Shown: positions 2,628-16,700, counted from the first letter of the stretch. The stretch: 64,000 nt of DNA from an uncultured Actinomycetota bacterium (GCA_963850215.1 CAWKKI010000004.1:72682-136681), one strand, 5' to 3'. The notes: a model not told the origin generated them from the sequence alone. Made by a program: numbers and translations.

Positions 2628-3200
2628 TCAGATGGCCCGGTCGCCGCCGAGTGAAAGCTTGCTGATCGTGCGCTGGAACTCATTGAGGGGTCGAACAGCA
2701 GCGTGCAGTTCGCGCCCATCAATCGTTTTCACGCGCAATTCACCGACGTCCCTAGGGCGACGTGGAAACTGCGCGACCGAGACCCGCGAGACGTCGGACC
2801 AGGTCACCTCGAGTCGCGTGCGCAGACCCATCCAGCGTCCGACGTCGTCCAGTTCAATACAAAGCCGAGTTGCGCTGATGGCTAACACGCCCGGTACGCG
2901 GCCGCCCAGCATCGCACCAAACAACCTTGCTCTCACTGTTGGTTCTAACGGCGGCGCAAGGAAGCGTCCAACTTCCTTAATTTGGAGGTCTGTTGAGCAT
3001 CGAGAGAGCACTGTTGCGTCGCCTGGCACGCTTGGGGAAGGACTCGGGTTTATGGCGCGGAGGCCGATCAAGACGCCCGCTGCAATCGCCACCAGAATCA
3101 GGCCGGTTGCGAATGGCCAACTTTGGCCCCCCGCCACCGCCAACACGATCAATATGCATCCCGCGGCGGCGAGTGCGCCGACGAAAACCTTGATCTTCAC
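2628..3200 (-). CDS. membrane protein with a soluble C-terminal domain; immunity candidate for the upstream RHS-type tip
   Basis: ORF track, 190 aa. Its start overlaps the stop of 3197..4786 by 4 nt. It has two N-terminal hydrophobic helices (VFVGALAAAGCILIVLAVAG, FATGLILVAIAAGVLIGL) followed by ~120 aa of soluble sequence. Confidence 0.55.
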   Translation of the reverse strand: MKIKVFVGALAAAGCILIVLAVAGGQSWPFATGLILVAIAAGVLIGLRAINPSPSPSVPGDATVLSRCSTDLQIKEVGRFLAPPLEPTVRARLFGAMLGGRVPGVLAISATRLCIELDDVGRWMGLRTRLEVTWSDVSRVSVAQFPRRPRDVGELRVKTIDGRELHAAVRPLNEFQRTISKLSLGGDRAI

Positions 3201-4786
3201 AACTTGTCCACATTAGGCAGCTGTTGATAATTGGGTGCTGGGGACTGATTTCTCGGGCAGCCAGGGTCCCCTGTAGCGGGAATGTCCGGACCGTTCGGCG
3301 AAGTCGTCGATGGATCGGAAAAGGGTCCGGTCAGTGACTCTACGTCCAACATTGCTTGAATCGACCGGATAAATAGGCCTGAGCCGGCCATACCTAGTAC
3401 TGCCCCCGCGACCGTCGCTGCGGCCGCAAACGCGGCAGCCTCCTCAGCGGCACTGCATTGAGCCGGCGTGCCCCAGCCGCATTGCACCTCGGCAGCATCC
3501 ACCGCGTAAACCGTCGACACCGCGCCGAGCGCCAACCCCAACGGACGAGCGCCCGCGAAGTCCGCGACGGTCGCGGCCGCACCAGCGCCTACAGCGACAG
3601 TTGTGAACGTGTCTGCAGCCAAACAGTGGATGGCGAAGCACATAAGCCCGGTCGGATCACTTCCGTTAACGGGGTCGCCGCTCGAGTAGAAATAAGGGGC
3701 GCCAGTAAGTTCGGTTCGCGGGTCGGCGCTCGCAAATTGTCCGGTGGATGGGTCGTACCAGCGGGCGCGTAGGTAGATCCAACCTGTGCTCGGGTCGCTG
3801 TATTGGCCGTCCCATCCGAGAGGCAGGGGAGTCGATCCCGAGTGCGAGGACAAACTGCCGTAGGGGTCATAACTCCACGTGGCGCTGACTGTGCCGCCAA
3901 CGTTCGTGCTGTAGATGAAGGCAACTTCGCCATTGGGTTGAACAGTCGCGCCCGGGAGTGCCGCCGCGAACTTAAGTACGTTCACAGAGGCAACTCGAAG
4001 CGCCTCACTGTTCTGATAGATCGACGCTTTCAAAGATCCTGGCGACGCCCACCGGACGTAGACCCCCCGGCTTGGCGCAGTTGGGGTCCAACCGTCTGCA
4101 CGCAAGAGGTCGTGAACCCGGCGCGCATGATCGGATCCCGTGTAACGGACGAATCGATCAATCATGAAACTGACTGCCGATGCCTGGTCGCGTCGAAAGC
4201 CGCGTTCCGTCAACTCGTCGCTGAACGTCTCAACGATCTCCTCGGCAGTCTCTGCATCCACGCGATCGACGGTGCGCTCAAGTGTGCTGAGCGCAGCCTG
4301 CGCCATCACCATTTCAGAATCACCGAATCTGAAACTGGTGGGAACCAACCCGAAGACGGCGAGAAGGAGAAACACGCCCCCGACGAGTAACAGCACCGCG
4401 GCGCCTATTCCGTTGTCTGTTGCAAAGACTGCAACGACGCCTGTTCCGAGCGCGGACGCTCCGACCACAGCAGAGACAATGCGCTCCCACCAGGGCACCC
4501 GTCGATTGATCGCCGACCTCGTTGGACCATCTGGGGTTGCCACAGACCTATGGTGACGAAAGAGTTGAAACAGCGGGGCACTTTCGTCAGCAAAGCAACG
4601 AGTCCCGGCCTCGGCGTGGCAGATCAGCAGCGCCTTGTTCGACAGATCCTTGGACGGCCGGAAGGAGTCGTGGAGGCGCCACGGCTCAGTCGGAGTTAGG
4701 TAGCAGAACACACTGTTGGCATGCGAACACAGCCGAGCTAGACGGTGGTGAATTTGGAGGTAGTCGGGGTTGGAAAGGCGGGGCAT
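3197..4786 (-). CDS. chimeric protein: repeated N-terminal module + 2 TM helices + RHS core-end motif + Ala/Gly-rich hydrophobic C-terminal tip
   Basis: ORF track, 529 aa. The N-terminus PDYLQIHHRLARL..FCYLTPTEPWRLHDSFRPSK is paralogous to 146..565. The TM region is VVGASALGTGVVAVFA / AAVLLLVGGVFLLLAVFGLV. The mid-protein segment WSYDPYGSL..GWDGQYSDPSTGWIYLRARWYDPSTGQFASADP..YFYSSGDPVNGSDPTGL is the canonical RHS core terminus, but no YD-repeat shell precedes it. The gene starts 12 nt after the stop of 4799..6316. Confidence 0.7.
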   Translation of the reverse strand: MPRLSNPDYLQIHHRLARLCSHANSVFCYLTPTEPWRLHDSFRPSKDLSNKALLICHAEAGTRCFADESAPLFQLFRHHRSVATPDGPTRSAINRRVPWWERIVSAVVGASALGTGVVAVFATDNGIGAAVLLLVGGVFLLLAVFGLVPTSFRFGDSEMVMAQAALSTLERTVDRVDAETAEEIVETFSDELTERGFRRDQASAVSFMIDRFVRYTGSDHARRVHDLLRADGWTPTAPSRGVYVRWASPGSLKASIYQNSEALRVASVNVLKFAAALPGATVQPNGEVAFIYSTNVGGTVSATWSYDPYGSLSSHSGSTPLPLGWDGQYSDPSTGWIYLRARWYDPSTGQFASADPRTELTGAPYFYSSGDPVNGSDPTGLMCFAIHCLAADTFTTVAVGAGAAATVADFAGARPLGLALGAVSTVYAVDAAEVQCGWGTPAQCSAAEEAAAFAAAATVAGAVLGMAGSGLFIRSIQAMLDVESLTGPFSDPSTTSPNGPDIPATGDPGCPRNQSPAPNYQQLPNVDKL

Positions 4787-4798
4787 GCAACTTGTCGG

Positions 4799-6316
4799 CT
4801 AAGCCCGTGATGCCGAGACCTTGTTGTCGGCTCGCGCATCGATGACAACAACGGACTCTTCACCTATCAGCTTGAGTTCAGTCAATATGGCATGCACCCG
4901 AACCTGTTCCTCTGCGGTGTAGCAGAGAATGACCTTCACGCTGCTGCGCGTGCCATTGGCCTTCTCGTAGATCTCAACCTGCTTTTGCAAATTTCGTTTG
5001 AGTTGACTGTTGCTTGCCAGTTTGAACTCGATCAACGTCTTGTCGACGGCACCCTTGCTGACCTTAAAGTCCACGGGGCCGCGGCCGTTGTTCGGCTCGC
5101 GGTTGATGTCGAACTCGGTGCCGAAGAAGATCAGTCCGAAGAATAGTTGGACGTCGCTCTCCCGAGAGAACGGCTTATCGCGGCCTTGCTTGTTGATCAG
5201 TTTGTAGCCGTCCTGATTCTCGACGTACTGCTTGAACCCAAGAACACGCTTGAGCGCTTCGCTGTAACTTGACACGTTGCCCTGAGTCAGCGCTTGACGC
5301 AGGGCTGGATCTGCGATGGCCGACTTGACCATCTCAACAAGTAGCCGCTCGGTCTCGTTGCGCTTTTCTTGGCTGACGTGGACTGCACGGTCGCCGGCAT
5401 CCTCTTGCATTCGGATGTACCGGTCGATCAGCTCAGGAAACTCTTGAAGTGTGCGATCAGCGGCTCGGACTCGGTCCTTGGCGGTGGGCTTCTGCCCCAG
5501 CTGACCGCTGAAGTAGTTGTTGATCTGCGCGCGGAGTTGGTCGTCGTCGACTGCTGCCGGCAGGCGATGAAAGTTGCGGACCATGTCGGTTCGGCTGATC
5601 CAAGTGTCGTCACGAGTGAGCATGTCCAGCGGGGTTAGAAGCACAAAGTCGCCGTCGAAGCGCGGCAGGTAGTACGACCGCGTGACCCAGGCCTCTGTGT
5701 CGTAGTTGAAGGAGGCCCTGGGCACAGCGAACATGGCACACATCTCCGCGGGGAGATGTTCCTGCGCGAACTTCTGCGTGTACTCGAGGAGGTAGTTCTT
5801 GATCAGATTGGTTGTGAAGTCACTGATGTTGTCTCGGCCAACACCTGATTTGATCAGCGCCACCTTTTCGAGGTGGCTGCCGTGCGTGATGGTTTCGGTC
5901 CCAAACGACTGCAAGATGGACCCGAGGGCGCCATGCAGTGCGCGCGCAAAGTCCTCGCCGAGACCACTTCCCGAGTTGCCCAACAGCGTGAAGCCGAACC
6001 AATTCTGCTTCACCTCTTTGAAGCAGTACAAGTTGCGGATCAGTGCCGGGTCGAGACCGTCGTCGGCCTTGTCACGGAGGAAGGTCAGGTACCTGATGAT
6101 CGCCTGATGAAGGGCCTGGTACTCGGGGCGTTCACTATGAAACAGCAGGAACGGATCTACGAAGAGAGGCAGATCCGAAACCAAGTTGATGTCGAAGGCG
6201 CCGTACTCATCGAGCACGTTGGGATCAATCCCAAACACTTGGGAAAAGTACAGATCGCCGTTCATCCGCGCCCTCGCCCAATCGATTCGGTCCGTGTAGC
6301 GCCGACGTCCCAACAC
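4799..6316 (-). CDS. large protein with a C-terminal PD-(D/E)XK nuclease-like motif; candidate effector
   Basis: ORF track, 505 aa (GTG 6316; an alternative ATG at 6265 has GAGGG upstream). The C-terminus reads SRESDVQLFF..GRGPVDFKVSKGAVDKTLIEFKLASN, giving the E / D / ExK arrangement of restriction-endonuclease-fold proteins. I do not recognise the N-terminal ~380 aa (FGIDPNVLDEYGAFDINLVSDLPLFVDPFLLF..). It lies 40 nt downstream of the JAMM-E1 gene on the same strand. Confidence 0.65.
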   Translation of the reverse strand: MLGRRRYTDRIDWARARMNGDLYFSQVFGIDPNVLDEYGAFDINLVSDLPLFVDPFLLFHSERPEYQALHQAIIRYLTFLRDKADDGLDPALIRNLYCFKEVKQNWFGFTLLGNSGSGLGEDFARALHGALGSILQSFGTETITHGSHLEKVALIKSGVGRDNISDFTTNLIKNYLLEYTQKFAQEHLPAEMCAMFAVPRASFNYDTEAWVTRSYYLPRFDGDFVLLTPLDMLTRDDTWISRTDMVRNFHRLPAAVDDDQLRAQINNYFSGQLGQKPTAKDRVRAADRTLQEFPELIDRYIRMQEDAGDRAVHVSQEKRNETERLLVEMVKSAIADPALRQALTQGNVSSYSEALKRVLGFKQYVENQDGYKLINKQGRDKPFSRESDVQLFFGLIFFGTEFDINREPNNGRGPVDFKVSKGAVDKTLIEFKLASNSQLKRNLQKQVEIYEKANGTRSSVKVILCYTAEEQVRVHAILTELKLIGEESVVVIDARADNKVSASRA

Positions 6317-6356
6317 AATTCGACTTCCAGCGAAGTCCTTCCATCCGTGATGGATG

Positions 6357-7802
6357 TCATTTCGAAGATTCCAGCTTCACGGGGAGGCGCCGCGCAGACC
6401 CTCGCCCGAGACGCCCCTCAGTGGTGCACTCTGTACAGGCCGGCGACGAACTCGGCACCTCTCTAATGAACTCATTGGTGCGCGGGTTGTGACGGATCCA
6501 GGTGAGTTCGCCCGGCTCCCGCAGCCCGGTCATGTCCATCAAGAACCCGTCCGTGGCGAGCGAGGCGGCAATCGCGTTCAAGGTGATGACGCTCGGCGCT
6601 GGCACGTCAGCGTCATCGACGTATCGCTGTCGTCGCACCTGATTTGGATCAGTGGCCTCCTCTTGAAGCTGGTCCGCGAGGATCAGACCGTTGCACCAAA
6701 GGCAACCTTGTCCGGGAAGCACTGGTCGAGTCACGGTGAAGACATCGAGAATGTCGCCGCTGTCTCTTTCGATCTGCACCTTGACACCCATCTGAACGCC
6801 CGGAATCAGGTATTGGTGCACGAGCGCGTTGAAGACCAGACGCGATTGCATGGAGTCCGCGGCGAGGAACAGGTAGTCGCAGTCACACAAGCTGCTGGCC
6901 ACTCCAGGGTCCACAACGTCGGCCCGAATCGGCACTACCTGGCCACGACCGCCCGTCTCATTTGCGTGGCGTGCTGCGATACGGACCTTTGATGTGCGCA
7001 GGCGTGGAAGCCAGTCCCCAACGAACATGAAGGCACTAAGCACCGGATGGACGTCTCGGCGGCGACTGCCCACCACGCGCGGCAGATTGGTCGGCTCGAT
7101 GGATTCCGGATCGATGACGACAACCTGGCCCACCCCCAGACGACTTAGCTGTTCGACGATCAATGACCCGGCGCCGCCAGCACCGATGACGCCCACCTTC
7201 AGTCCGGATAGGCGCGCTTGTCCTCGATCGCCAAATAGACGCGACTGACGGTCGAATCGGTCCGAGACGTGAGGTGGCGGTGCAGGCGGCGAGGACCGCA
7301 TCTCACGAATGGGCTGATTCGGCTCGACTAGAACCTGCAAGTCAGCCCGAGTCCCATCGGCGAACCAGATGTCCCCGGCGACGGCGTCGGCTGCAAACAC
7401 CAACGCCCCAACCGGTGGCCCATCGACGATGTCCAGCAGCGCCTGATATCCACGCTCGTGCGACTCCATGTCCGTGGCGGAGAAGCCGACTCGATCAGTG
7501 CCCCCGTGGCAATGAACTGCAAGGTAGGCCATCTGAAGATCGGCACATTCCAAGACGCAATCGAGCACAAAGTGGGCGGTAAGCATCCGGTAGCCATGTG
7601 TGCCCGGCAGATAGTCGATGCCATCGCGCGCAAGAAAGAGCCTGTGCACAAGCAAGCGCGTCCCGCGGGACGAGCGCAGAACGGACGCCGCCAGCACGGC
7701 GCCGTGCTCATCCCCATCGCCGGGAAAGAGGTGCTGACGCAACTGCCTCAGCAGTGTGGGCGGAAACCGCACGCTCACCGGCGTCACAGCGACTGCAGCC
7801 AT
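6357..7802 (-). CDS. JAB/JAMM metallopeptidase domain fused to an E1-like (ThiF/MoeB-family) adenylyltransferase domain
   Basis: ORF track 6357..7841, trimmed to ATG 7802. JAMM signature: GDEHGAVL (Glu) and AVHCHGGTDRVGFSATD (HxH-x8-S-x2-D). Rossmann motif: LKVGVIGAGGAGSLIVEQLSRLGVGQVVVIDPESIEPTNL. ThiF-type CxxC pairs: GCLWCNG and PACTECT. Confidence 0.85.
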   Translation of the reverse strand: MAAVAVTPVSVRFPPTLLRQLRQHLFPGDGDEHGAVLAASVLRSSRGTRLLVHRLFLARDGIDYLPGTHGYRMLTAHFVLDCVLECADLQMAYLAVHCHGGTDRVGFSATDMESHERGYQALLDIVDGPPVGALVFAADAVAGDIWFADGTRADLQVLVEPNQPIREMRSSPPAPPPHVSDRFDRQSRLFGDRGQARLSGLKVGVIGAGGAGSLIVEQLSRLGVGQVVVIDPESIEPTNLPRVVGSRRRDVHPVLSAFMFVGDWLPRLRTSKVRIAARHANETGGRGQVVPIRADVVDPGVASSLCDCDYLFLAADSMQSRLVFNALVHQYLIPGVQMGVKVQIERDSGDILDVFTVTRPVLPGQGCLWCNGLILADQLQEEATDPNQVRRQRYVDDADVPAPSVITLNAIAASLATDGFLMDMTGLREPGELTWIRHNPRTNEFIREVPSSSPACTECTTEGRLGRGSARRLPVKLESSK

Positions 7803-8197
7803 GCCAAGACCTTCTGCAGTTTGAGCGCGGCGGTGTCGCACGCTGGGTTCAACCCGTTGGAGCGCCGCGACAGTTGGATCGCGGGGAACGTCTGACCATC
7901 GATCTGATACGACCCGAGTGAACTGCCTTCGCCTAGCGGCAACCCGTTGGGCGAAGCGCCATCAGACCGTCGTACGTCAGGCCCGATGAAGTGTGGATAG
8001 ACATCCGACATTGGGTATTGAAAGGTGATGTGAAACCAAATCCACGTCGAGGCTGGCGAGTACTTGCTGCCCAAGTCGATCGGATCAACAGTCACGTAGG
8101 CGCCACCTTGGTTGTCGGCGACCGCGGTGACGGTCGCGTCCGGGAACGCCTCACGCAGCTCGGTCACCGCCATCTCGACTTCGGGGGTCAGCGTCAT
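7784..8197 (-). CDS. E2/UBC-like protein (prokaryotic E2 family)
   Basis: ORF track, 137 aa, located between the Ubl and E1 genes. It has an N-terminal helix, then WIWFHITFQYPMSDVYPHFIGP, which resembles the UBC ..F.i.FP..YP...P.v.F..HPN segment. The single Cys (C120, NPACD) lies outside the loop after YPHF, and that loop is Ser-rich (RRSDGAS, EGSS). The assignment rests on context plus pattern, not on a search. Confidence 0.6.
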   Translation of the reverse strand: MTLTPEVEMAVTELREAFPDATVTAVADNQGGAYVTVDPIDLGSKYSPASTWIWFHITFQYPMSDVYPHFIGPDVRRSDGASPNGLPLGEGSSLGSYQIDGQTFPAIQLSRRSNGLNPACDTAALKLQKVLAWLQSL

Positions 8198-8203
8198 GAC
8201 GTA

Positions 8204-8461
8204 CTACGAGTTGTCGTCGGGAGCGGTGGCGGCAAACCGGCTGCCGTCCTCAACGTGAACCACTTCGTCGTCGCCGATCAGCTTGCGCTTGTCCGGCTTG
8301 ATGAGGGCCAGTTGAAAGTTCAGTTGAATGGCAACACCGAAGGCAATGGCCGCCTCCTTGACCTCGAGCCCCGTCACATGGTGGCCGCTCACTCGAACGG
8401 CCTTCTTGTTGACCAGGATCTCGACCTCCGGCTTCGTTTTTCCTTCGTCGTCCATCGGCAT
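8204..8461 (-). CDS. small beta-grasp ubiquitin-like protein (multiubiquitin-family-like), 85 aa
   Basis: ORF track 8204..8518, trimmed to ATG 8461, which has AAGGAGG 6 nt upstream. KPEVEILVNKKAVRVSGHHVTGLEVKEAA..LIGDDEVVHVEDGSRFAATAPDDNS fits my recollection of the Pfam Multiubiquitin pattern (..I.VNg....e....tg.qi...a......L......i.dde.v.v.dG..F....d.ns). It is the first gene of the Ubl-E2-E1 array. Confidence 0.65.
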   Translation of the reverse strand: MPMDDEGKTKPEVEILVNKKAVRVSGHHVTGLEVKEAAIAFGVAIQLNFQLALIKPDKRKLIGDDEVVHVEDGSRFAATAPDDNS

Positions 8462-8559
8462 GGCGCCGCCTCCTTGATTGCAAATTAGGTAGTTGGTTGC
8501 TAATCTAGGATTCCACATTAGACGGAGAATTGCAACTTCGCAACCCAGGGGGCGCGGCG
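8462..8559. promoter_or_regulatory. 98-nt divergent intergenic region between the Ubl array and the HTH/ImmA pair
   Basis: Low-GC patch. It contains the self-complementary hexamer TTGCAA twice (gATTGCAAat near 8477 and aATTGCAAct near 8527). No promoter can be called with confidence. Confidence 0.3.
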
Positions 8560-8913
8560 GTGCCGAAACGCGGATGGTTTGACGCAGCAGGCTTCTACGA
8601 GGCCCTCGAGGCCGTTCGCCTGACCCGAAAGGTCAATTGGAAGGGCGTGGCCGCCGAGTCTGGGGTTAGCGCATCAACCCTGACGCGCATGGCGCAAGGG
8701 AAGCGGCCCGACGTCGACGGCCTCGCGGCGCTCACAGCCTGGTCTGGGCTGCGCGCCGATGACTTCGTTCGGAGCGACGACCAGATACCGGACCCAGAAC
8801 CTTTGGCGCTGATCACGACGCACCTACGCAGCGACAAGAACCTCAGCCCGGAAGCGGCGGCGGCCCTGGACGAACTCATCAAGGCCACTTACGAACGCCT
8901 GCGCCGGCAGTGA
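8560..8913 (+). CDS. XRE-type HTH regulator (CapH-like), copy A
   Basis: ORF track 8530..8913, trimmed to GTG 8560 by alignment with its paralogue 40226..40603. The HTH is NWKGVAAESGVSASTLTRMAQGKRPDVDGL. By eye it is roughly one third identical to copy B over the full length, including RPDxDG and PEP motifs. Confidence 0.75.
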   Translation: MPKRGWFDAAGFYEALEAVRLTRKVNWKGVAAESGVSASTLTRMAQGKRPDVDGLAALTAWSGLRADDFVRSDDQIPDPEPLALITTHLRSDKNLSPEAAAALDELIKATYERLRRQ

Positions 8914-8917
8914 CCAC

Positions 8918-9478
8918 GTGGCGTATCGATATGGCTTCAAGACCGAGGCCAACACGCTCGCGCTGCAAGTTCGCGACGAGCTGACGATCGGGCCACTTGA
9001 TCAACTCGATCCCCACAGGCTTGCAACACATTTGGCAGTCCCGATCTGGCCCTTGAGCGACTTCCTAGCCACTCACCCTGTCGTTCGTCATCTCTACGAT
9101 TCCGAGTCGGAGGCCTTCTCGGCGGTCACAGTCTTCTGCGGCCCTCACCGAACCATCGTTCACAACGATGCTCACTCACTCGCGCGCCAACACAGCAACC
9201 TTGCACACGAGTTGTCACATGCTTTGCTCCAACACCCGCCCACACCCGCCCTTGACGACGTCGGCTGTCGGAACTGGGACCAGGAGGTCGAGGATGAAGC
9301 CAACTGGTTGGCAGGCGCTCTGCTCGTTTCTGAGCCCTCAACCATCGCCATCGCTCGGGGCGACTGGGGAGACATCGAAAACGCGGCCGCGCGGCTGGGT
9401 GTAAGCAGACAGATGGTCCAGTTCCGGGTCAACGCAACGGGCGCGGTCAAGCGCATCCAACGCATGCGGCGTGGCTAA
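8918..9478 (+). CDS. ImmA/IrrE-family (COG2856) zinc metallopeptidase (CapP-like), copy A
   Basis: ORF track, 186 aa, starting 4 nt after the HTH stop. It has HExxH in NLAHELSHALLQH and a downstream EDEANWLAGALL (E-x-x-A-N..LL), typical of the family. Confidence 0.8.
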   Translation: MAYRYGFKTEANTLALQVRDELTIGPLDQLDPHRLATHLAVPIWPLSDFLATHPVVRHLYDSESEAFSAVTVFCGPHRTIVHNDAHSLARQHSNLAHELSHALLQHPPTPALDDVGCRNWDQEVEDEANWLAGALLVSEPSTIAIARGDWGDIENAAARLGVSRQMVQFRVNATGAVKRIQRMRRG

Positions 9479-9647: not shown

Positions 9648-10268
9648 TCGAGCCCGCGTTGCCGTATTGAAAGTCATCTCCGAAGAGCTATCTGTGGTCA
9701 CCGCGGCTGAGTACGGCTATAGCCGTCAGCATCTTCATCGTCTGCTCGCTCGCTACCGTGAGGGGGGCCTTGATGCGGTCGAGCCCCGCTCGCGACGACC
9801 ACAATCGAATCCGACCAGACCAGCGCGACAGTCCGCGAGGCGATCGTGTCGCTGCGGCTGGCGCTGAGTGCCTACCGTCGTTTAGATTTCGACTTTGAGC
9901 CGGTGTCCCGCCCGCAGCGGGCGGCGTGGCGGCCCCGTTCGCGGATGTCCCCCGCTTTGACGGCCAACGTCGTGGCTGCCTACGGATCCGGGGCGACAAC
10001 CCGGCGGGTCGCATCACAGTTCGGCGTGAGCCGACAAACCGTGGTCCGACAACTACGCGCCCACAACGTTCCCGTCCGGCGCACCGAGCCTCTTTCACCA
10101 GCTGCCGTGCAGGAAGTACTGCGGCTCTACGAAAGCGGCTGGTCACTCGCCCGCGTTGGTGAACGCTTCGATCGCTCCGCCAGCGGCGTGCAGCGGATCC
10201 TCATCCCTGCCGGCGTTCCCCGCCGCTCAAGCTCGACTCCCACATCAAGATCCATCGTACGCCCGTGA
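9643..10268 (+). pseudogene. IS481/IS3-type transposase N-terminal HTH remnant, frameshifted and joined to a double-HTH segment; no DDE domain
   Basis: ORF 9643..9867 reads MSRARVAVLKVISEELSVVTAAEYGYSRQHLHRLLARYREGGLDAVEPRSRRPQSNP, the typical transposase HTH plus RSRRP motif. It continues in another frame (..TSATVREAIVSLRLAL..) into ORF 9846..10268, which has two HTH units (ATTRRVASQFGVSRQTVVRQL and LYESGWSLARVGERFDRSASGVQRIL). No catalytic domain follows. Confidence 0.5.
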
Positions 10269-10352: not shown

Positions 10353-10388
10353 CTCACACGAAATGGACCGAAATACGGGGCCGGACAC
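10353..10388 (+). repeat. IS-end-like ~36-nt motif, copy B (ctcacacgaaatggaccgaaatacggggccggacac)
   Basis: Related copies lie at 2552..2580, 17796..17833 and 18069..18106. Copy D directly precedes (on the minus strand) the ATG of an IS3 OrfA remnant, as a terminal inverted repeat would. Confidence 0.6.
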
Positions 10389-10445
10389 TACCGTCGTTTA
10401 GATATAAGATTCATTGTTAGCGGGTTGCTGCAAGACCAGTGATCG

Positions 10446-10718: not shown

Positions 10719-13700
10719 TCAGCATCCTGGGGCTCGATATACTCGAAATCGCCCAGCACCCGTTCGATGGCAACCCGGGTTGAAAACAAGACCCGAGCCA
10801 TAGAAATCAACTAAGGTCGCCAGCACGCCCACCGGCCAGTCTACCAAATGGGATCCTACCCTAAATAGCAAGTACTTTGCGAGGCGCCTCTCGCCCAGCT
10901 TTGCTAACGGGATCGTATAATTGCTGCTCTCCCCCAGGAAGTCGTAAATAGCTCGGCGAAAGTGCCTCTGGCCCAACTCAGCAAGACTAGATATCCACGA
11001 ACGATAACTGAAGAAAGAAACGATTCCATGGAGATGGGGGTGGCGTCCCCACACCCCAATGATGCGAGTTGGATTCTTCTCTCCGCCCGGCTCGCGCTCC
11101 GTATATCTGCCACTGATATCATTGTTATTGATTGGATCGTCGGGGTAGTTGTATGCGTTTTCATTTCCACCCACCTCTGGATCAAGTGAAAGAAAACGTC
11201 CCAGTATCGGGTTGTAGAGTCGATCGCCCATCAGGACGATCCCCGCTACCGCGTCGTTCGAGCGCTGCTTGTCACCGAGCCAGCCGTACGGGGACTGCTG
11301 TGTGTCGGTGCCACGAGCGAGACCGAACTCGGTTGATTCGCTGTACGAGTTCGGTCCAACGCAGGAGGGGTCCGCCGCGTTGGCACTGTTGGTGCAGTCG
11401 ATGCCCGCACCTGACGCGAAGTCGAGCGGCACGGTCGCAACGAGGTCACCGTGTGGATTGCTTAACTCGAGTTCTGCGGTGCCGGTGGAGTTGGCTTCGA
11501 TGGCCATGTCCCCGCCGAGATCATCGACGTATTGCTGCCACGTCCAGGTGGACCCCAAGTTGGTGGAGGTGGTGATGTAGGCGGGGGCATCGCCAGCGCC
11601 GTCGAAATAGTTGACGGTGCGGCGGGTCTCGGTGCCGCCGGTGGTGTAGGTGGTTTGGGTGAACCGGTCGGTTGGATCCAAGGCCATGCTCATCGCCGTG
11701 GCACTTCCGCCGGTTCCTGCCGTGATGGTGGCGGACTTGTCGTTGGCGTAGTAGGTGAACGCGGTTGCCGCTCCACCGGTCACGTCGCCGGCGGGTAGGC
11801 CGAGGGTGCGGCCGAGTGCGTCGTAGCTGATGCCGGTGCCGGTGAGCTGGTCGGCAGTGTTGTAACTGTAGGTCGCCGAGGTGGAGTCGGGCGTCGTGGA
11901 GGTCGAGCACGTACCGTCAGAGGCTGGCGGATATTCGGTGTACGCGGTGCGGTTCCCGTCGGCAGCTTGCGCGGAGCTCGATGCGCTAAAGGCGTAGGCG
12001 CGGGTGGTGCAGCCGTTGGCTCCGTCGCTGTCTTGAGTCTGTGTGAGGCGCCCGTCGTTGTCGTAGGTAAACGCTTGTGAGGACTCGGATGAGGACTGGG
12101 AGACCGTCTGTCCGAACTCGTCGCGAGTGATGCTGAAGGTCATCCACGGGGTCGTCACAGGTGGGCTGCCTGCAACAGTCAGGGCGTAGGTTTGAGACGT
12201 GACTGCGCCGTCGGGGTCGATAGTGGACGACCCGACGAGGCCGGTCGGATAGGTCTGGGACACCAGCGTGCCGTCGGCGTTGTAGCTGCCCTTGAACGTG
12301 GCGGTGCCGCCGAGCAGAGCGACCGACTCGGCCGTGACGACCCCACGGTGCTCAGCGTTACCGTTGGAGTCGGTGGCGTTGACGGTGTAGGTCGTCGCAC
12401 CATGCGCGTCGTCACGGGAGGTCAGGTTCCCGTCAATGTCGTAGCCGCTGCTGGTGGTGTTCCCCTGAGCGCTGTAAGAGGTCGTTTCACCGATCGCGTT
12501 GTAGCCAGTCGTGATCGTCCCGGTCGAGTCGGTCACCGTGGTCTGCAGGCCGGTCGAGCTGTCGTAGCCGAGCGTGCGGGTGGGCACTGCTGTGGTCGTG
12601 ATCCCTGATGTGGTGATCGAGGTAGAGACCAGCCGAGCCCCAGCGGAGTTGGCGTCGGTGTAGCCGTTGGTCGTGGTCCGGGTGGTCGACGAACCTGACG
12701 TCTCGGTCTCGGTCAGCACGTGCCCGTACAGGTCGTAGGTGTAGACCGTCGTGGGCAACGTGGAACTACCGCCACTGGACGGTGCGGCCGCCGGACCTTG
12801 CTGACACATCAGCCCGGCCCACTCAATCGCATTGGCGTTGGAGCCAGTCCCGGTCGACCCGCACTCGGGGGCAGCGGTCTCAGGGCCGACCACGTAGTAA
12901 TACGTCCGAGTGGTGCCGGCGTCGCTGCCGTTCGACGCTGGCTGGGAAGTGGCATAGGTGTCCCCGTCGTCGTAGTAGGTCGTCGAGGAGGTGATGTCGT
13001 TACTCGAGGAGGCCCCGCCGACTCCCATACGCACCGTGGTGGAGGTGGGCTGACGCAACGTCCAACCAGTCGCGGTGCCATCCGTTTGGATCGCGCCACT
13101 CGAATTCACATACACGTCGGACCCGCCGTAAGCGGTGACGGTGACCCGTTGATCGGCCGCACCTGGTGCTGCGCCGTTGGCGACGAGTGGGCTCATCGTC
13201 GCTTGTGTCAGCAGGCGGTACGGCCCACCTGAGGGTTCACTGGCGTCGTAGGAGTTGGTGGTCTGCGCCTGCGCGTCTGCCACCCCGGTCGACAGCTGCA
13301 CCTGATGCGTTGGGCCCAGAGTGGAAAGCACCTCGGACTCATCAGCACTGTAGGTCGTTGTCGAGGACAACAGGGCAGCGCGCTGTGCCGACGTGGCGAT
13401 GTCGTTGACGTAGCCATCTCCGGAGGTGGCGTTCAGTGCGTCTGCCCGGTTCTGAGCTGACAGCGACCAGACCGAGTTTCCAGCGAGGTCATAACCGGTG
13501 GAGTTGATGTTCCAACCAGTGGCGCCGCCATTGTTCGCGCTGTTCACGACGCGACCATTGGCGTCGATGTAATCGATCGAGGCGTAGGGCCATTCCGTTG
13601 ACGTCGGCTGCCACGAAGTTGACGAAGCCAGAAATAGTGACGGCGCATGCGATGCCGGAAACACCGCTGTGCCGTACAACGCGTTGTCGCTGGTCTGGTC

Positions 13701-16700
13701 CCACGACGCCGCGGTCGCGGCCGTAACATCGGGTTGGCCCGAACCGCTGAGCCCAACGCCGTACTCAACGACCTGCTCGGCTACCCCGTTGACAGGGTCG
13801 GTGCGCTTAACATCGGCGACCATCCCTGCCTGGTCCGCACCGGTTCCATCGGTCCCGGTGTAGTAGTCGATCGTCCAGGCCGCCTGACCGGGCGGGGTGA
13901 TGGTGAGCAGTCGGCCGCTTGTGGGGTCGTAGGTGTAGCTAGTGACCAATAGCGGCGTTATCCGCGGATCCCGTTCCTGCAGCAGTTGACCCGAGGTGCT
14001 GTAGGCGTAGTCGGCGATGAACGCTCCACTGGCCATCGCCCCCGTGGACGGATCCCAAGCATTCAGTTGGATCGACTTGAGACGGCCGACGAAGTCACCC
14101 GGGGTTCCCGCAGTCGCCGTGGTACTCGTCGCGTAGGTCAGGGTTAGCCCCTGGCAGCCCTGGACCAGCGGCGTTGGGTAGGCGGGACATGTGATGCCGG
14201 CGGGCGTGGGTGCGAGGATCCGGACGACCTGGCCGTTCACGTAGGTATACGACGTGCTCGCCCCGCCGGGTTGCGCGATCGAAGCGACCTCCCACTGCGA
14301 CGTGGATGCGTCCCACGTCCAAGTCGTCACGGTGCCGTCAGTGTCCGTGAGTGTGTCGCTGTATGCGTAGGCCGGTGAGGTCCCGGTCCGCGTGGCGGTG
14401 AGCACTGAGCCGTCATCGGCGTCACCAACGCCATAGAACGTGTACGGGTACGTGGTGTTGCTCGTGTCATACGTGGACACTGACCCGGTCGAGTCGGTCA
14501 ACGTGGCGTAGCCCTTAGAGGCGAAGTCGGCGAGCGTCTCATCGCCCGCACCGGCGTCCACTCCTGGGATATCCGCGACCCAGCCGGGGCCGAAGATCCC
14601 GGTCGCGCCAGATGTGTTCGTCGAGGGCGACAGCGTGGTGAAGGTGCGCCCAACGCTCATACCGAACACGCTCGCGTCGGTGGCGGACACGGCGAAGTCA
14701 CCCGTCACTTCCGACAAGGTCCCCGGACCTAGTTGCGTTGTGGCGGCGGACGCGGAGAAGGTGTGGGTGGCCATCGTCACGTCGGTGGGCGTCGAACAAT
14801 TGGTGAAGGGGCCCGCCGATGTGGTCGCGAAGCAGGCCTCGATCTGCAGTGGTCCGTCCACCGGGTTACCTTTACCCAGCAGCGTCTGCAGCGTGCTCAG
14901 GGCGTTCCATGTCAGTTGCCCGTAGACCCCGCCGGAGGCTGCGTACGGCCACGAACTCAGACCCGTTCCGCCGGGGACCTTCACATCCCCGACCGGGACC
15001 AACGACCACGGGTTACTCGAGGAGCTTTCGACGCCCCGGACGTAGTTGTATTCGACATAGTTGTTTCCAGAGGCCGCCTTGGTGTTCAGCGTCACATCGA
15101 GCTGCGTCGTAGCCGCCTCGGCCGGCGTCACAATCCCACCGGGCCCCGTGCCGAAAGTGAAGGTGCCAGTCGTTTCGTTGCTGGCCCGGTCCAGTGCCTG
15201 CACCGTCAATGTGTGCAAGCCCGCCGGCAAATTGGATAGCACTGACACACTCGTCGCGCTCGAGGTAATCGGCTGCTGACCGTCAATCCAGTACGTGTAC
15301 TTGGTGACATCGCTCGACGTGTCAGACCAGTTGATCGAGCCCGTGGCGCCCTTGCCGACCCAGCCGCCCGACGTGAACGTGGACGAGCTGAAGGTGGGAA
15401 TGGCGGGGGCGGTGTTGTCGGCGTAGAAGTCTTGCCACGCCGTCAAACCCGAGCCCATATAGACCCCGCCCGAGTAGTCCTCAGATTTGACCTGCCACTG
15501 ATAGTGATCGCCATTGATCAATGGACCGGGCACTTGGTAGGCCGATGGACCGCCCGACGCCGCAGTGGTCCCGACCGAGCCGCTCGAGGAACTCACCCAC
15601 GTGGTGGTGCCACCTGTGACGTCCTTGACGTAAAAGCGCCCGTATGCCGATCCACCGTCTTGGTCGGCCACGACCGCCGACAGATCAGGGGCCGACGCCG
15701 TGTAGGTGCCGGTCGCTGGTGACAGCCCTGTCGGCAGCGTCGGGTAATGGTTGTAAGTGATGTAGATCGCCGGAGCTCCCGATCCGATGTCGTCGGAGTA
15801 GAACTGCCGATACCCATATACGTCGGTCTCTTCGGTGTACATCTCCAGCTGGTGCGCGGTGTAGGTGGCATTCGCCCAGTCCTGCGCGGCCGGGGTGATG
15901 GTGATGTTCTGATACGCCTCCCCCGGACACGACGGCCCGTTGTGCACAAACTGCGCCGATCCCACCGTGGTGCCTGCACTGGGGACGTTGGACCAGTCGG
16001 TTGAGGAGTTCCAGGTGGTCGAGGGGATCGACACATTGATCGTCGCTGCGGTCGCCGAGCACGTGGACGAGTAGGAGTTGTAGACCTGCAAATAGGCGGA
16101 GTCGATATAGGTGCCCACGATCGTCGAGGGCACCGGGAACGTGAAGAACGACCGGTACTTCGCCGCAGACCCGTCCTTACCGGTGTACAGGTAGTCCGCC
16201 GAGTCATACGTCGTCGATGGAGTCGCCGAGTCGACATACGTGTCAGCCGTGTCGTGGAAGTTCGTGGACGGGTCAACCGTCACCGGATACGTGACTGAGC
16301 CCGAGAGCAGCGATTCTGCTGGCGATATCAACTGCACCGCCGACGTCATCGCGGTACCGGGCGCAACAACAGACAGGCCAGGGAAAGCGGCAGCCAACGA
16401 GGAGACTGACGGGAGCGAGCCAGGTACGGCAGGCCCTGCCGTGCCCACAGAGATTGAGGCTGACGGGCTCGGCGCGGCCGAAGAACTGGTTGCCGTGCTG
16501 ACACTTGGCGAACTGCTCGGGCTCGGCGATGCCGACGGAGTCGCTGAACTCACCGGGGTCGCTGCCACTGGGATGGACGAGGACGCACTGACGGTGCTTA
16601 CCGAGCCAGTCGCTAACCCTTGAGCCACCGCACCAGCAACAAGCGGATCCCCCGCCGCCGCACCGTCCGCACCGAACACCGCACCGGGTGACCCCGACGC

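What the first reader, a model, noticed from the sequence alone, without database searches (positions are those of the whole stretch)
4799..9478. Ubl / Cys-poor E2-like / JAMM-E1 fusion array coupled to a large PD-(D/E)XK protein, with a divergent CapH/CapP-like HTH + ImmA pair
**Seen in the sequence**
- Four co-directional minus-strand genes are packed tightly: Ubl 8461-8204, a 6-nt gap, E2-like 8197-7784, a 19-nt overlap, JAMM-E1 7802-6357, a 40-nt gap, then a 505-aa protein at 6316-4799.
- The E1 fusion has a full JAMM motif (E, HCH-x8-S-x2-D), a GAGGAGS Rossmann motif and two CxxC pairs.
- The E2-like protein has its only Cys (C120) far from the loop after YPHF. That loop is Ser-rich.
- The 505-aa protein ends in an E/D/ExK restriction-endonuclease-fold motif (ESDVQ, GPVDF, IEFK). 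I cannot place its N-terminal 380 aa.
- Across a 98-nt intergenic region lie an XRE HTH gene and an HExxH ImmA/IrrE peptidase gene.

**Established knowledge**
- Ubl+E2+E1+JAB operons were predicted by Iyer, Burroughs and Aravind (2006, 2011).
- Related Bil systems and CBASS Cap2/Cap3 conjugate proteins during anti-phage defence (2023-2024 work from the Sorek and Corbett labs).
- A further Bub class was reported to use oxyester (Ser) chemistry.
- CapH/CapP HTH-plus-metallopeptidase pairs de-repress CBASS after DNA damage (Lau et al. 2022).

**Inference**
- This looks like a multiubiquitin-type conjugation module whose output or target is a dedicated nuclease, under CapH/CapP-type control.
- I do not know of a described system with this combination.
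Basis: partly seen in the sequence, partly recalled or inferred. Interest (0 to 1): 0.85.

Follow-up and report, generated by a model that had tools for sequence, protein, structure and literature searches.

The report
Bub-like ubiquitin operon beside unrelated nuclease
The window holds a real five-gene bacterial ubiquitin-like conjugation module, a relative of the described "Bub" systems that lacks their extra protease, but the large nuclease-like gene next to it is an independent defence-island gene that normally follows restriction-modification operons.

Summary
All six ORFs exist as described, except that the 505-aa protein most likely starts at 6265 (488 aa), leaving a 91-nt gap after E1.

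**The conjugation module (6357-9478).** The gene set HTH + ImmA / Ubl - E2-like - JAB-E1 recurs in 80 genomes from many phyla.
- The JAB-E1 protein is a homologue of Citrobacter BubCD, including the crossover-loop Tyr that BubCD needs for conjugation.
- The Cys-less E2-like protein models confidently. Its only significant PDB fold match is BubB.
- The Ubl is a Multi_ubiq beta-grasp.

So this belongs to the known 6e / Type I Bub kind, and the Bub paper already reports CapH+CapP pairing. Two things differ from described Bub. No BubE/DUF6527 gene was found in the window or in any relative. The Ubl ends in a near-invariant DDNS rather than Gly.

**The nuclease link is not supported.**
- Homologues of the 505-aa protein (DUF8370+DUF8371) are absent from 79 of 80 E1 loci.
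- None of 80 loci holding its homologues has Ubl, E2 or E1.
- In six annotated contexts it is the last gene of a type I or type III-like restriction-modification operon. In a seventh it overlaps an HsdR-like fragment.

**Verdict:** a new variant of a known kind, next to an unrelated gene.

The parts
8918..9478 (+). ImmA/IrrE-type Zn metallopeptidase (HELSH motif), the CapP-like member of the regulator pair
   Evidence: - Pfam Peptidase_M78, E 1.2e-18.
- PADLOC capP, E 1.7e-7.
- A homologue sits in the same position in 29 of 80 related loci and in the two closest annotated relatives, L172 and L173.
8530..8913 (+). XRE-type HTH protein, the CapH-like putative repressor. The start may be the GTG at 8560.
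   Evidence: - Pfam HTH_31 1.6e-4 and HTH_3 2.7e-3, both below the gathering score.
- PADLOC capH, E 4.4e-3.
- Present divergently upstream of the Ubl gene in 49 of 80 loci. In most actinobacterial-type relatives that also carry ImmA it is 66-76% identical, the best-conserved protein of the module there.
8462..8529 (.). Divergent intergenic region between the Ubl operon and the HTH/ImmA pair; presumed promoter and operator region
   Evidence: The position follows from the ORF map. No sigma-70-like promoter or inverted repeat was detected, so its role as an operator is inferred only.
8204..8461 (-). Single beta-grasp ubiquitin-like protein (85 aa) ending in DDNS directly before the stop codon
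   Evidence: - Pfam Multi_ubiq, E 3e-7, above the gathering score.
- Found in 74 of 80 loci.
- The C-terminus is DDNS in 73 of 74 relatives and in 110 of 150 cluster representatives.
7784..8197 (-). Cys-less E2-like (BubB-like, Prok-E2_E-type) protein, 137 aa. The candidate catalytic Ser is S110.
   Evidence: - AlphaFold2 model, mean pLDDT 94.
- The only significant PDB fold match is Citrobacter BubB 9eae_C (E 8.5e-5, TM 0.69/0.73); Atg3, Atg10 and Ubc12 follow only weakly.
- Invariant D65, Y67, P68, Q108, S110, R111; no conserved Cys.
- Some homologues carry a precomputed PF14462 hit.
6357..7802 (-). JAB/JAMM peptidase fused to an E1 adenylation domain (BubCD-like), 481 aa
   Evidence: - Best PDB sequence hit is Citrobacter BubCD 9ea4, E 1.7e-22, spanning both domains.
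- Pfam ThiF, E 6.5e-22.
- Conserved in the family: the JAMM residues, G.GG.GS, crossover-loop Y394 (100%) and two CxxC pairs.
4799..6265 (-). Neighbouring gene that is not a conserved part of the module: a DUF8370+DUF8371 protein (488 aa; an upstream GTG at 6316 would give 505 aa) with a probable C-terminal PD-(D/E)XK domain
   Evidence: - Homologues carry precomputed PF28123 and PF28130.
- The N-terminus matches PADLOC candidate PDC-M36A, E 3.6e-18.
- PDDEXK_9 hits are sub-threshold in 22 of 40 members.
- E369, D399, E413 and K415 are invariant.
- Elsewhere the gene follows restriction-modification operons.
- It is absent from 79 of 80 E1 loci.

Best explanation
**What it is.** Window 6357-9478 is a self-contained five-gene module of the 6e / Type I Bub kind.
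- A CapH-like HTH repressor and a CapP-like M78 peptidase are transcribed divergently from a three-gene operon.
- That operon encodes a one-domain Ubl, a cysteine-free BubB-like E2 and a BubCD-like JAB-E1 fusion.

**How it most likely works (inferred by homology to the biochemically characterised Citrobacter Bub system).**
1. The E1 domain adenylates the Ubl C-terminus.
2. The invariant crossover-loop Tyr394 takes the Ubl as an oxyester.
3. The Ubl passes to the invariant Ser110 of the E2-like protein.
4. It is then conjugated to lysines of still unknown targets.

**Differences from described Bub.**
- The Ubl is translated already ending in its conserved mature tail (DDNS, not Gly).
- The module has no BubE (DUF6527) protease. 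The JAB domain is therefore probably the only deconjugating enzyme here; it would act as a processing enzyme only in rare relatives that have C-terminal extensions or Ubl-E2 fusions.

**Regulation (inferred).** Expression is probably de-repressed on DNA damage or phage infection, when the peptidase cleaves the HTH protein.

**The adjacent gene.** The 488-aa DUF8370/DUF8371 gene is an independent defence-island gene that usually sits at the 3' end of restriction-modification operons. Its position here is a juxtaposition, not a conserved part of the system.

**Shown versus inferred.**
- Shown: homology, folds, conserved residues and gene-neighbourhood statistics.
- Inferred: the chemistry, the regulation and any defence role.
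For: **Homology to Bub components.**
- BubCD homology covers both domains, with the Tyr aligned. Y394 and the JAMM residues are conserved in 81 sequences.
- The E2-like model (pLDDT 94) matches only BubB significantly. S110 is invariant and there is no conserved Cys.
- The Ubl hits Multi_ubiq.

**The module is conserved.**
- It recurs in 74-77 of 80 loci across Actinobacteria, Chloroflexi, Proteobacteria, Cyanobacteria, Acidobacteria and Nitrospirae.
- The same five genes appear in the independently annotated relatives L172 and L173.

**No BubE.**
- No Pfam DUF6527 hit in the window's genes or in the downstream or convergent ORFs scanned singly.
- None of 83 co-directional ORFs after E1 matches DUF6527.
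- The CxxxC...HxxC signature is not found near any module.

**DDNS tail.**
- Seen in 73 of 74 relatives and in 110 of 150 representatives.
- DDNS is kept at the junction of two Ubl-E2 fusions and before rare extensions.

**The neighbouring gene is independent**.

**Published background.**
- Bub mechanism and the CapH/CapP association: doi 10.1101/2024.11.21.623953.
- Class 6e: PMC1779556.
Against: - No biochemical or phage-defence data exist for this clade. Even canonical Bub operons have not been shown to protect against phage.
- The catalytic partner residues differ: the motif is S-R-R here, against S-x-H in BubB.
- The Ubl ends in Ser rather than Gly, so E1 adenylation of this tail is assumed, not shown.
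- The E2-like and JAB domains get no Pfam hit of their own.
- A BubE gene elsewhere in these genomes cannot be excluded.
- The 488-aa gene is on the same strand only 91 nt downstream, with no convincing terminator, so co-transcription is possible.
- The CapH-like assignment is weak.
Confidence: 0.75

Rival explanations
1. The 488/505-aa DUF8370/DUF8371 protein has been locally recruited as an effector, target or accessory of the Ubl operon and is co-transcribed with it. More generally, it could be a plug-in 3' module that works with whatever defence operon lies upstream (type I R-M, type III-like R-M, and here Bub-like).
For: - It is on the same strand, 91 nt after E1, with no significant terminator.
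- In other genomes it is always the last, tightly linked gene of different defence operons. In L170 and L171 its start shares one base with the end of the Res gene.
- Sinomonas carries a degraded gene of the same N-terminal superfamily directly beside the ImmA gene of its module.
- The N-terminus matches a PADLOC multi-gene candidate component, PDC-M36A.
Against: - Only 1 of 80 E1 loci (a pseudogene fragment, at the opposite end of the module) and none of 80 homologue loci show co-occurrence.
- The closest E1 relatives have Shedu or nothing downstream.
- The closest homologues of the protein (73% identity) still follow R-M genes.
- GC content over the gene is lower than over E1/E2 (0.57-0.58 against 0.62-0.63).
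Confidence: 0.1
2. The operon is not a protein-conjugation system. The E2-like protein would be a catalytically inert RWD-like Ubl-binding adaptor, as Iyer et al. 2006 originally proposed. The E1 would then perform a different C-terminal chemistry on the DDNS tail, for example an MccB-like modification of a C-terminal Asn/Ser or sulfur transfer.
For: - The E2-like protein lacks Cys and lacks the S-x-H motif of BubB.
- The Ubl tail is DDNS rather than Gly.
- MccB, an E1-like enzyme, appears among the weaker PDB hits; from my own knowledge it modifies a C-terminal Asn.
- The family keeps the ThiF/MoeB-type double CxxC Zn site.
- Iyer 2006 predicted an inactive E2 for class 6e.
Against: - The same 'inactive' prediction was overturned experimentally for Bub.
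- The crossover-loop Tyr needed for Bub conjugation is invariant here.
- An invariant Ser (S110) follows the last beta-hairpin of the BubB-like model, at a sequence position comparable to BubB S333. This is judged by position; no residue-level superposition was available.
- A conserved active JAMM peptidase domain fits a conjugation/deconjugation cycle.
Confidence: 0.1
3. The module is a decaying or incomplete Bub operon that lost BubE, with the neighbouring gene inserted in its place, and is no longer functional in this genome.
For: - The paper on described Bub operons states that they all encode BubE directly beside E1. Here that position is occupied by an unrelated gene.
- The locus sits in a variable region with Rhs genes and orphan toxin cassettes.
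Against: - All five genes are intact, with catalytic residues conserved.
- BubE is absent from all 80 relatives in many phyla, not just here. Its absence is therefore a clade trait under purifying selection, not a local loss.
Confidence: 0.05

Closest known systems
Type I Bub (bacterial ubiquitination-like) operons, formerly 6E.1/DUF6527; Ye, Gong, Chambers & Corbett 2024, doi 10.1101/2024.11.21.623953
   Same: - A JAB-E1 fusion homologous to BubCD, with the conserved crossover-loop Tyr.
- A cysteine-free E2 with the BubB fold and a conserved Ser.
- A Multi_ubiq Ubl.
- A frequent divergent CapH+CapP-type pair.
- Separate Ubl and E2 genes also occur among listed Type I Bub operons.
   Different: - No BubE/DUF6527 gene was found in the window or in 80 relatives, whereas 'all Bub operons encode BubE'.
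- The Ubl ends in a near-invariant DDNS at the stop codon, not a Gly exposed by JAB cleavage.
- The E2 motif is S-R-R, not S-x-H.
- The E1 keeps two CxxC pairs. Citrobacter BubCD has no Cys at the aligned position of the first pair.
- E1 identity to Citrobacter BubCD is low, and the E2 and Ubl are not detectable by sequence against the PDB.
Class 6e operons of Iyer, Burroughs & Aravind 2006 (PMC1779556)
   Same: - PolyUbl or solo Ubl, an 'inactive' E2/RWD-like protein and a JAB-E1 fusion.
- The E2-like domain sometimes occurs as a stand-alone gene between the Ubl and JAB-E1 genes.
- Sporadic, mobile distribution, including Actinobacteria and Cyanobacteria.
   Different: The 6e description includes a metal-binding protein 'Y' (C-x3-C-x35-38-H-x2-C), which is absent here. 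The DDNS tail and a Y-less subclade are not described in the passages I read.
CapH/CapP regulator pairs. Lau et al. 2022 is cited from my own knowledge; the association with Bub is taken.
   Same: An HTH gene is followed by an M78/ImmA-type HExxH peptidase gene, and the pair is divergent from a defence-type operon. PADLOC capP and capH hits are weak.
   Different: - The peptidase is shorter (186 aa against a 242-position capP profile, with only positions 36-150 matched).
- The capH score is marginal.
- 20 of the 49 relatives with the HTH gene show no detectable ImmA homologue.
- Cleavage and DNA-damage sensing are untested.
DUF8370+DUF8371 proteins (PF28123/PF28130) and PADLOC candidate PDC-M36A, for the 488-aa neighbouring gene
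   Same: It is a full-length member of this family: more than 5,700 homologue clusters, and 60-75% identity across actinobacterial genera. The N-terminal 42-256 matches PDC-M36A.
   Different: - Elsewhere the gene follows type I or type III-like R-M operons. Here it follows the E1 gene.
- No paper mentions these families.
- The function is unknown; the C-terminal PD-(D/E)XK assignment is sub-threshold.
Bil (BilABCD) and Type II CBASS Cap2/Cap3
   Same: All are bacterial Ubl/E1/E2/JAB conjugation machineries found in defence contexts.
   Different: - Bil has a separate JAB protein, a multidomain E1 with a catalytic-Cys domain and a Cys E2.
- Cap2 is an E2-E1 fusion that acts on a CD-NTase.
- PADLOC E1-E2 profiles match the window's E1 mainly around the Rossmann nucleotide-binding region, residues about 195-260, reaching about 390 in two models.

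Membership tests
Type I Bub / 6e | JAB/JAMM peptidase fused N-terminally to an E1 adenylation domain, homologous to BubCD | tested here: met
   phmmer against the PDB gives Citrobacter BubCD 9ea4, E 1.7e-22, query residues 19-428 against chain residues 17-406. The JAMM residues and the Rossmann motif are conserved.
Type I Bub / 6e | E1 crossover loop with an invariant Tyr instead of a catalytic Cys | tested here: met
   Y394 aligns with the BubCD crossover-loop Tyr ('RQRYVDD' against 'LERGYITG') and is 100% conserved in 81 sequences. The only invariant cysteines are two CxxC pairs. I read these as a structural Zn site; that reading is an inference.
Type I Bub / 6e | Cysteine-free E2-fold protein (BubB / Prok-E2_E) with a conserved catalytic Ser | tested here: met
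   - The AF2 model (pLDDT 94) matches BubB 9eae_C, E 8.5e-5, TM 0.69/0.73.
- S110 is invariant and no Cys is conserved.
- The partner His of the BubB S-x-H motif is replaced by Arg.
- Some homologues carry PF14462.
Type I Bub / 6e | Multi_ubiq-type beta-grasp Ubl | tested here: met
   Pfam Multi_ubiq, E 3e-7, 31 bits against a cut-off of 24.5. Relatives have 1-3 such domains, and these are homologous to solved multi-ubiquitin structures.
Type I Bub / 6e | Ubl C-terminal Gly, exposed by JAB cleavage of a BubAB precursor | tested here: not met
   The Ubl ends ...PDDNS directly at the stop codon. DDNS is found in 73 of 74 relatives and 110 of 150 representatives. The conserved Gly (G229) of Bub is described.
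Type I Bub / 6e | BubE (DUF6527, Zn-binding Ser-His protease) encoded in the operon | tested here: not met
   - No DUF6527 hit in the window's genes or in the ORFs scanned singly near E1 in relatives.
- None of 83 co-directional ORFs after E1 matches it.
- No CxxxC..HxxC signature lies near the module.
- It is absent from the precomputed Pfam annotation of L172 and L173.
- A copy elsewhere in the genome was not examined.
Type I Bub / 6e | Conjugation through Tyr and Ser oxyester intermediates | not testable with these tools
   This needs in vitro reconstitution with Y394F and S110A mutants.
CapH/CapP regulator pair | HTH repressor gene followed by a Zn-metallopeptidase (HExxH, M78/ImmA) gene, divergent from the regulated operon | tested here: met
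   ORF map. Peptidase_M78, E 1.2e-18, with an HELSH motif; HTH_31 and HTH_3 hits are weak. The same arrangement is seen in 29 of 80 relatives.
CapH/CapP regulator pair | Sequence membership in the capH and capP profiles | tested here: inconclusive
   PADLOC capP E 1.7e-7 (29 bits, partial profile coverage) and capH E 4.4e-3 (16 bits). RmrA-type profiles score about as well as capP.
CapH/CapP regulator pair | DNA-damage-triggered cleavage of the HTH protein by the peptidase | not testable with these tools
   Needs a biochemical cleavage assay or reporter assays.
PD-(D/E)XK nuclease (C-terminal domain of the 488-aa protein) | Restriction-endonuclease-like alpha-beta-beta-beta-alpha-beta core with the D...(D/E)xK catalytic motif | tested here: inconclusive
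   - E369, D399, E413 and K415 are invariant.
- The predicted secondary structure of residues 369-476 fits the core.
- PDDEXK_9 hits are sub-threshold in 22 of 40 members, best E 0.0015.
- Fold matches are weak only: EndoMS, MUS81, PaqCI, DdmD, Cap4, with E 0.1-0.4, from a model of pLDDT 65.
   - None of 80 homologue loci has the genes.
- Only 1 of 80 E1 loci has any similarity, and that is a degraded fragment.
- None of the seven annotated contexts has them; six are R-M operons and one has only an HsdR-like fragment.
Bil (BilABCD) | Separate JAB protein, multidomain E1 with a catalytic-Cys domain, and a Cys-containing E2 | tested here: not met
   JAB is fused to a single-domain E1, there is no CYS domain, and the E2 has no conserved Cys.

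The most novel reading that the evidence does not exclude
The BubE-less, DDNS-tailed clade could be a mechanistically distinct third type of Bub-like pathway.
- The Ubl would be made ready to use, with a C-terminal Ser.
- The fused JAB domain would be the sole deconjugase.
- An S-R-R E2 active site would replace the S-x-H site of BubB.

In this genome the pathway would, in addition, have captured the R-M-associated DUF8370/DUF8371 nuclease-like protein as a co-transcribed downstream partner. That protein would then be a general 'plug-in' effector that attaches to the 3' end of unrelated defence operons.
Probability: 0.1. Interest if true: 0.75.

Novelty: new variant of a known kind. Interest (0 to 1): 0.42.

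Why it matters
**The conjugation module.**
- Bub pathways are the only known ubiquitin-like cascades that run on oxyester rather than thioester chemistry, and their biological role is still unknown.
- This clade is widespread: 168 matches among the GTDB species-representative genomes, across many phyla.
- It dispenses with the BubE protease and uses a Ser-ended Ubl. That would narrow down which components are truly essential for Bub-type conjugation.
- It would give a simpler three-protein system for reconstitution.
- It would also question the use of DUF6527 as the marker for cataloguing such operons.

**The neighbouring gene.**
- Showing that it is an abundant, uncharacterised tail gene of restriction-modification operons removes a false lead.
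- It also points to a separate family worth testing: more than 5,700 clusters, a PADLOC-candidate N-terminal domain and a probable PD-(D/E)XK C-terminus.

Tried and rejected
1. **Nuclease as a conserved fourth gene.** Rejected by neighbourhood counts from both directions and by the annotated contexts.
2. **Ubl-E2 as a split or pseudogenised BubAB fusion.** The two ORFs are in frame, separated by TAG plus two codons. I rejected this because a stop separates Ubl and E2 in 71 of 74 relatives, usually in different frames, and the tail DDNS-stop is conserved.
3. **A hidden BubE.** I looked by Pfam scans of neighbours and by a motif regex, and found nothing. One Bub Table S1 entry (Bradyrhizobium sp. 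BR 10303) appears to be the same strain as L042. L042 has no DUF6527, so the listed operon is presumably elsewhere in that genome; I could not check.
4. **Positive control for DUF6527 detection.** I wanted a canonical BubCD neighbourhood, but the homologue list returned only the close subfamily.
5. **The convergent ~526-aa family might be related to the 505-aa protein.** hhalign probability is 0.2%. It has no hits in PDB, NCBIfam, PADLOC or Pfam.
6. **Operator or promoter in the divergent intergenic region.** Nothing found.
7. **Cassette boundaries from flanking repeats.** Nothing convincing.
8. **Fold assignment for the 505-aa N-terminus.** The model was too poor (pLDDT 65, and residues 70-150 below 50) and no fold match reached E <= 0.001; a sequence-profile search of the PDB also found nothing.
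9. **C-terminal alignment of this Ubl to solved Bub or Bil Ubl structures.** No sequence hit for the last beta-grasp domain.
10. **Literature on PDC-M36, DUF8370 and DUF8371.** None found.

Full report
**1. The observation**

The six ORFs are present as described.
- On the minus strand: Ubl 8204-8461, E2-like 7784-8197, JAB-E1 6357-7802, and a large ORF ending at 4799.
- On the plus strand, divergently: an HTH ORF 8530-8913 and an ImmA-type ORF 8918-9478.
- The public protein collection holds exactly these gene products from one 265-kb contig: 85, 137, 481 and 488 aa.

The 488-aa call, together with the ~484-498-aa length of nearly all listed homologues, places the start of the large protein at M18 (6265). 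The gap after E1 is then 91 nt, not 40 nt.

- JAMM E32, H97-x-H99-x8-S108-x2-D111.
- GAGGAGS.
- Two CxxC pairs.
- A single, non-conserved Cys in the E2-like protein.
- Invariant E369, D399, E413-x-K415 in the large protein.

**2. What the Ubl/E2/E1 genes are**

*Family searches.*
- Pfam recognises Multi_ubiq in the Ubl (E 3e-7), ThiF in the E1 (E 6.5e-22) and Peptidase_M78 in the ImmA protein (E 1.2e-18).
- Pfam finds nothing for the E2-like protein or for the JAB half of the E1 fusion.

*JAB-E1.*
- Against all PDB sequences its best hit is Citrobacter BubCD (9ea4, E 1.7e-22).
- The alignment runs through both the peptidase and the adenylation domains.
- It places the window's Y394 on the crossover-loop tyrosine. 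Ye et al. showed that this tyrosine (BubCD Y370) is required for conjugation.

*E2-like protein.*
- It has no sequence hit in the PDB.
- An AlphaFold2 model built from 48 homologues is confident (pLDDT 94).
- Its only significant structural match is BubB from the BubCD-BubB complex (9eae_C, E 8.5e-5, TM 0.69/0.73). Atg3, Atg10 and Ubc12 follow far behind.
- A few homologues carry precomputed Prok-E2_E (PF14462) hits.
- Family invariants are D65, Y67, P68, Q108, S110 and R111, with no conserved Cys.
- The likely catalytic Ser is therefore S110 in Q-x-SRRSN.

**3. The conserved unit**

A scan of one genome per GTDB species with the JAB-E1 protein found 168 relatives. The best 80 (46-63% identity) come from Actinobacteria, Chloroflexi, Alpha- and Gammaproteobacteria, Cyanobacteria, Acidobacteria, Nitrospirae, Planctomycetes and others.

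tblastn with the window's proteins gives these counts:

| Window protein | Loci with a homologue (of 80) |
|---|---|
| Ubl | 74 |
| E2-like | 77 |
| HTH | 49 |
| ImmA | 29 |

- The order and orientation always match the window. The misses for Ubl and E2 are at contig ends.
- Nothing is conserved after E1: downstream genes differ from locus to locus.
- Two closest relatives with independent gene calls (L172 and L173, 62-63% identity) show the same five genes. One is followed by a convergent Shedu gene, the other by nothing recognisable.

The unit is therefore 6357-9478: a regulator pair plus a three-gene operon.

**4. Comparison with known systems**

*Prior descriptions.*
- Iyer et al. 2006 described class 6e as polyUbl or solo Ubl, an 'inactive' E2/RWD-like protein (sometimes a separate gene between the Ubl and JAB-E1 genes), a JAB-E1 fusion, and a metal-binding protein Y.
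- Ye et al. 2024 renamed this class Bub.
  - They showed oxyester chemistry: E1 Tyr, then E2 Ser.
  - They identified Y/DUF6527 as the serine protease BubE.
  - They state that all Bub operons encode BubE.
  - They report that 31% of Bub operons carry CapH+CapP.
  - Their catalogue was built from DUF6527-containing operons and includes Type I operons with separate Ubl and E2 genes.

The window's module therefore works like, and is homologous to, Type I Bub. The CapH/CapP-type pairing is already known for that kind.

*Two defining features are not met.*
1. **BubE is absent.**
   - No DUF6527 hit in the window's genes.
   - None among the downstream and convergent ORFs scanned singly.
   - None among 83 co-directional ORFs after E1 in the relatives.
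   - No CxxxC...HxxC signature near any module.
2. **The Ubl does not end in a Gly exposed by cleavage.**
   - It ends ...DDNS directly at the stop codon.
   - This holds in 73 of 74 relatives and in 110 of 150 representatives of 50%-identity clusters. Most of the rest end DD[HK]S or DDNA.
   - Rare relatives have a short extension after DDNS.
   - Two are Ubl-E2 fusions with DDNS at the junction. This mirrors BubAB processing and suggests that the JAB domain cleaves after DDNS.

Also, the E2 motif is S-R-R rather than S-x-H.

I therefore class the module as a BubE-less, Ser-tailed variant of the Bub/6e kind, not as a catalogued Type I Bub operon.

**5. The large neighbouring protein**

*What it is.*
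- It belongs to a very large family: more than 5,700 clusters, 60-75% identical across actinobacterial genera. Members carry precomputed Pfam DUF8370 and DUF8371.
- Its N-terminal 42-256 matches the PADLOC candidate PDC-M36A (E 3.6e-18).
- The C-terminal PD-(D/E)XK assignment is plausible but sub-threshold:
  - the motif residues are invariant;
  - PDDEXK_9 hits are weak in 22 of 40 members;
  - fold matches to EndoMS, MUS81, PaqCI, DdmD and Cap4 are weak, from a model of pLDDT 65.

*Where it occurs.*
- In six annotated contexts the gene is the last, tightly linked gene of a restriction-modification operon. The operon is either type I (HsdM-HsdS-HsdR-YgjP) or type III-like (SNF2 / N6_N4 methylase / ResIII-RE_endonuc). 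In a seventh context it overlaps a short HsdR-like (EcoR124_C) fragment. These contexts include homologues at 73% identity to the window's protein.
- Among 80 metagenomic loci of its homologues, none has Ubl, E2, E1, HTH or ImmA.
- Conversely, 79 of 80 E1 loci lack it. The single exception, Sinomonas L006, is a degraded fragment with only 24% identity. It has an in-frame stop, is truncated, and lies beside ImmA at the opposite end of the module.
- GC content over the gene is slightly lower than over E1/E2.

Co-transcription in this particular genome cannot be excluded: the gene is on the same strand, the gap is 91 nt, and there is no significant terminator. I give local recruitment about 10%.

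**6. Mechanism**

- Shown: homology, folds, conserved residues and neighbourhood statistics.
- Inferred from the Citrobacter work:
  1. E1 adenylates the Ubl C-terminal Ser.
  2. Tyr394 forms an oxyester with the Ubl.
  3. The Ubl is transferred to E2 Ser110.
  4. The Ubl is conjugated to lysines of unknown targets.
  5. The JAB domain reverses or edits conjugation, and processes precursors in the rare fused or extended relatives.
- Also inferred: the HTH protein represses the operon until the M78 peptidase cleaves it after DNA damage.
- A defence role is suggested only by context.
  - Shedu, DUF499/BREX-like, Uma2, DarT and toxin-antitoxin genes occur near relatives.
  - Rhs toxin genes flank the locus in the window.
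  - No phage protection has been shown even for canonical Bub.

**7. Verdict**

- The sequence observation is largely correct.
- The headline interpretation, a nuclease-coupled and undescribed combination, is not supported.
- What remains is a widespread but uncatalogued variant of a known kind, sitting next to an unrelated but itself uncharacterised gene that is linked to R-M operons.
- Interest is moderate.

Noticed in passing
L029:11398-12972 (-) and 20 other E1 loci (alignment A3): - In 21 of 80 relatives a conserved ~526-aa gene lies convergent to JAB-E1. In most of them its stop overlaps the E1 stop by 4 nt.
- All but two of these loci (L055, L058) have a detectable HTH gene, but none has ImmA.
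- The family has invariant C175 (GACAQ), H272 (GHA) and D302/D303 (HDDQ), reminiscent of a papain-like Cys-His peptidase.
- It has no Pfam, NCBIfam, PADLOC or PDB sequence hit and is unrelated to the 505-aa protein.
- It could be an alternative deconjugase or regulator for BubE-less operons.
   Followed up: partly
window 8204-8218 (Ubl C-terminus) and 74 related loci: The Ubl ends in a near-invariant Asp-Asp-Asn-Ser directly before the stop codon, where described Bub Ubls end in Gly. Variants are DDHS, DDKS and DDNA. I found no published mention in the Bub papers I read.
   Followed up: yes
L001, L002-L004, L085, L087/L088, L170/L171, L169; L089-L168: - The DUF8370+DUF8371 family is typically the terminal gene of type I (HsdMSR+YgjP) or type III-like (SNF2 / methylase / ResIII-RE_endonuc) restriction-modification operons.
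- Its start sometimes overlaps the Res gene's stop.
- It is often followed by an AAA_13/SMC_N ATPase.
- No paper mentions these DUFs or PDC-M36.
   Followed up: partly
L006:7700-8283 (-), Sinomonas sp. P47F7: A degraded gene of the same N-terminal superfamily as the 505-aa protein lies immediately after the ImmA gene of the second-closest module. It has an in-frame stop and is truncated after about 200 aa. It shares the motifs 'FIDPLLLL' and 'GIGADRISDATANVI'. This hints at recurrent co-residence of the two in the same island type.
   Followed up: partly
window 3197-4786 (-) and 146-565 (-): - The 529-aa ORF just downstream of the 505-aa gene carries an RHS-repeat-associated core domain (TIGR03696, residues 306-381) followed by a variable C-terminus, like an orphan Rhs toxin cassette.
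- Its N-terminal ~60 aa resemble the N-terminus of the unrelated ORF 146-565 (DNA repeat 428-487 / 4649-4708, 77% identity).
- A 190-aa ORF (2628-3200), a membrane protein judging by its hydrophobic sequence, follows and may be an immunity gene.
   Followed up: no
window 9846-10268 (+); repeats at 9872-9887 and 10388-10403: - A 140-aa protein with two HTH_23/HTH_7-like motifs lies beyond ImmA.
- Homologues (38-41% identity) recur next to DUF8370/71 genes in L001, L094, L106, L133, L136, L137 and L170, and in the Demequina E1 locus L005.
- A perfect 16-nt direct repeat (CTACCGTCGTTTAGAT) occurs at the gene's 5' end and about 120 nt after its stop.
   Followed up: partly
window 10719-17420 (-), 19945-24664 (-), 31061-33124 (+): - A 2233-aa Rhs/YD-repeat protein lies upstream of the module, and a second Rhs-like region lies at 19.9-24.7 kb.
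- A 687-aa protein at 31061-33124 has a cytidine-deaminase / MafB19-like deaminase domain.
- The module therefore sits in a polymorphic-toxin-rich variable region.
   Followed up: no
L005-L084: Among most actinobacterial-type relatives that also carry ImmA, the HTH protein is the most conserved component of the module: 66-76% identity, against 45-63% for Ubl, E2, E1 and ImmA. This is unusual for a repressor of a mobile defence operon.
   Followed up: no
L026, L070, L074, L080, L083 (cyanobacterial E1 loci): In cyanobacterial relatives the module is followed by a convergent pair: a DUF7680 gene (142 aa) and a DUF499 gene (about 1,080-1,100 aa). DUF499 is BrxC/PglY-like by my own recollection. 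This is another defence-type neighbour that differs from the one in the window.
   Followed up: no
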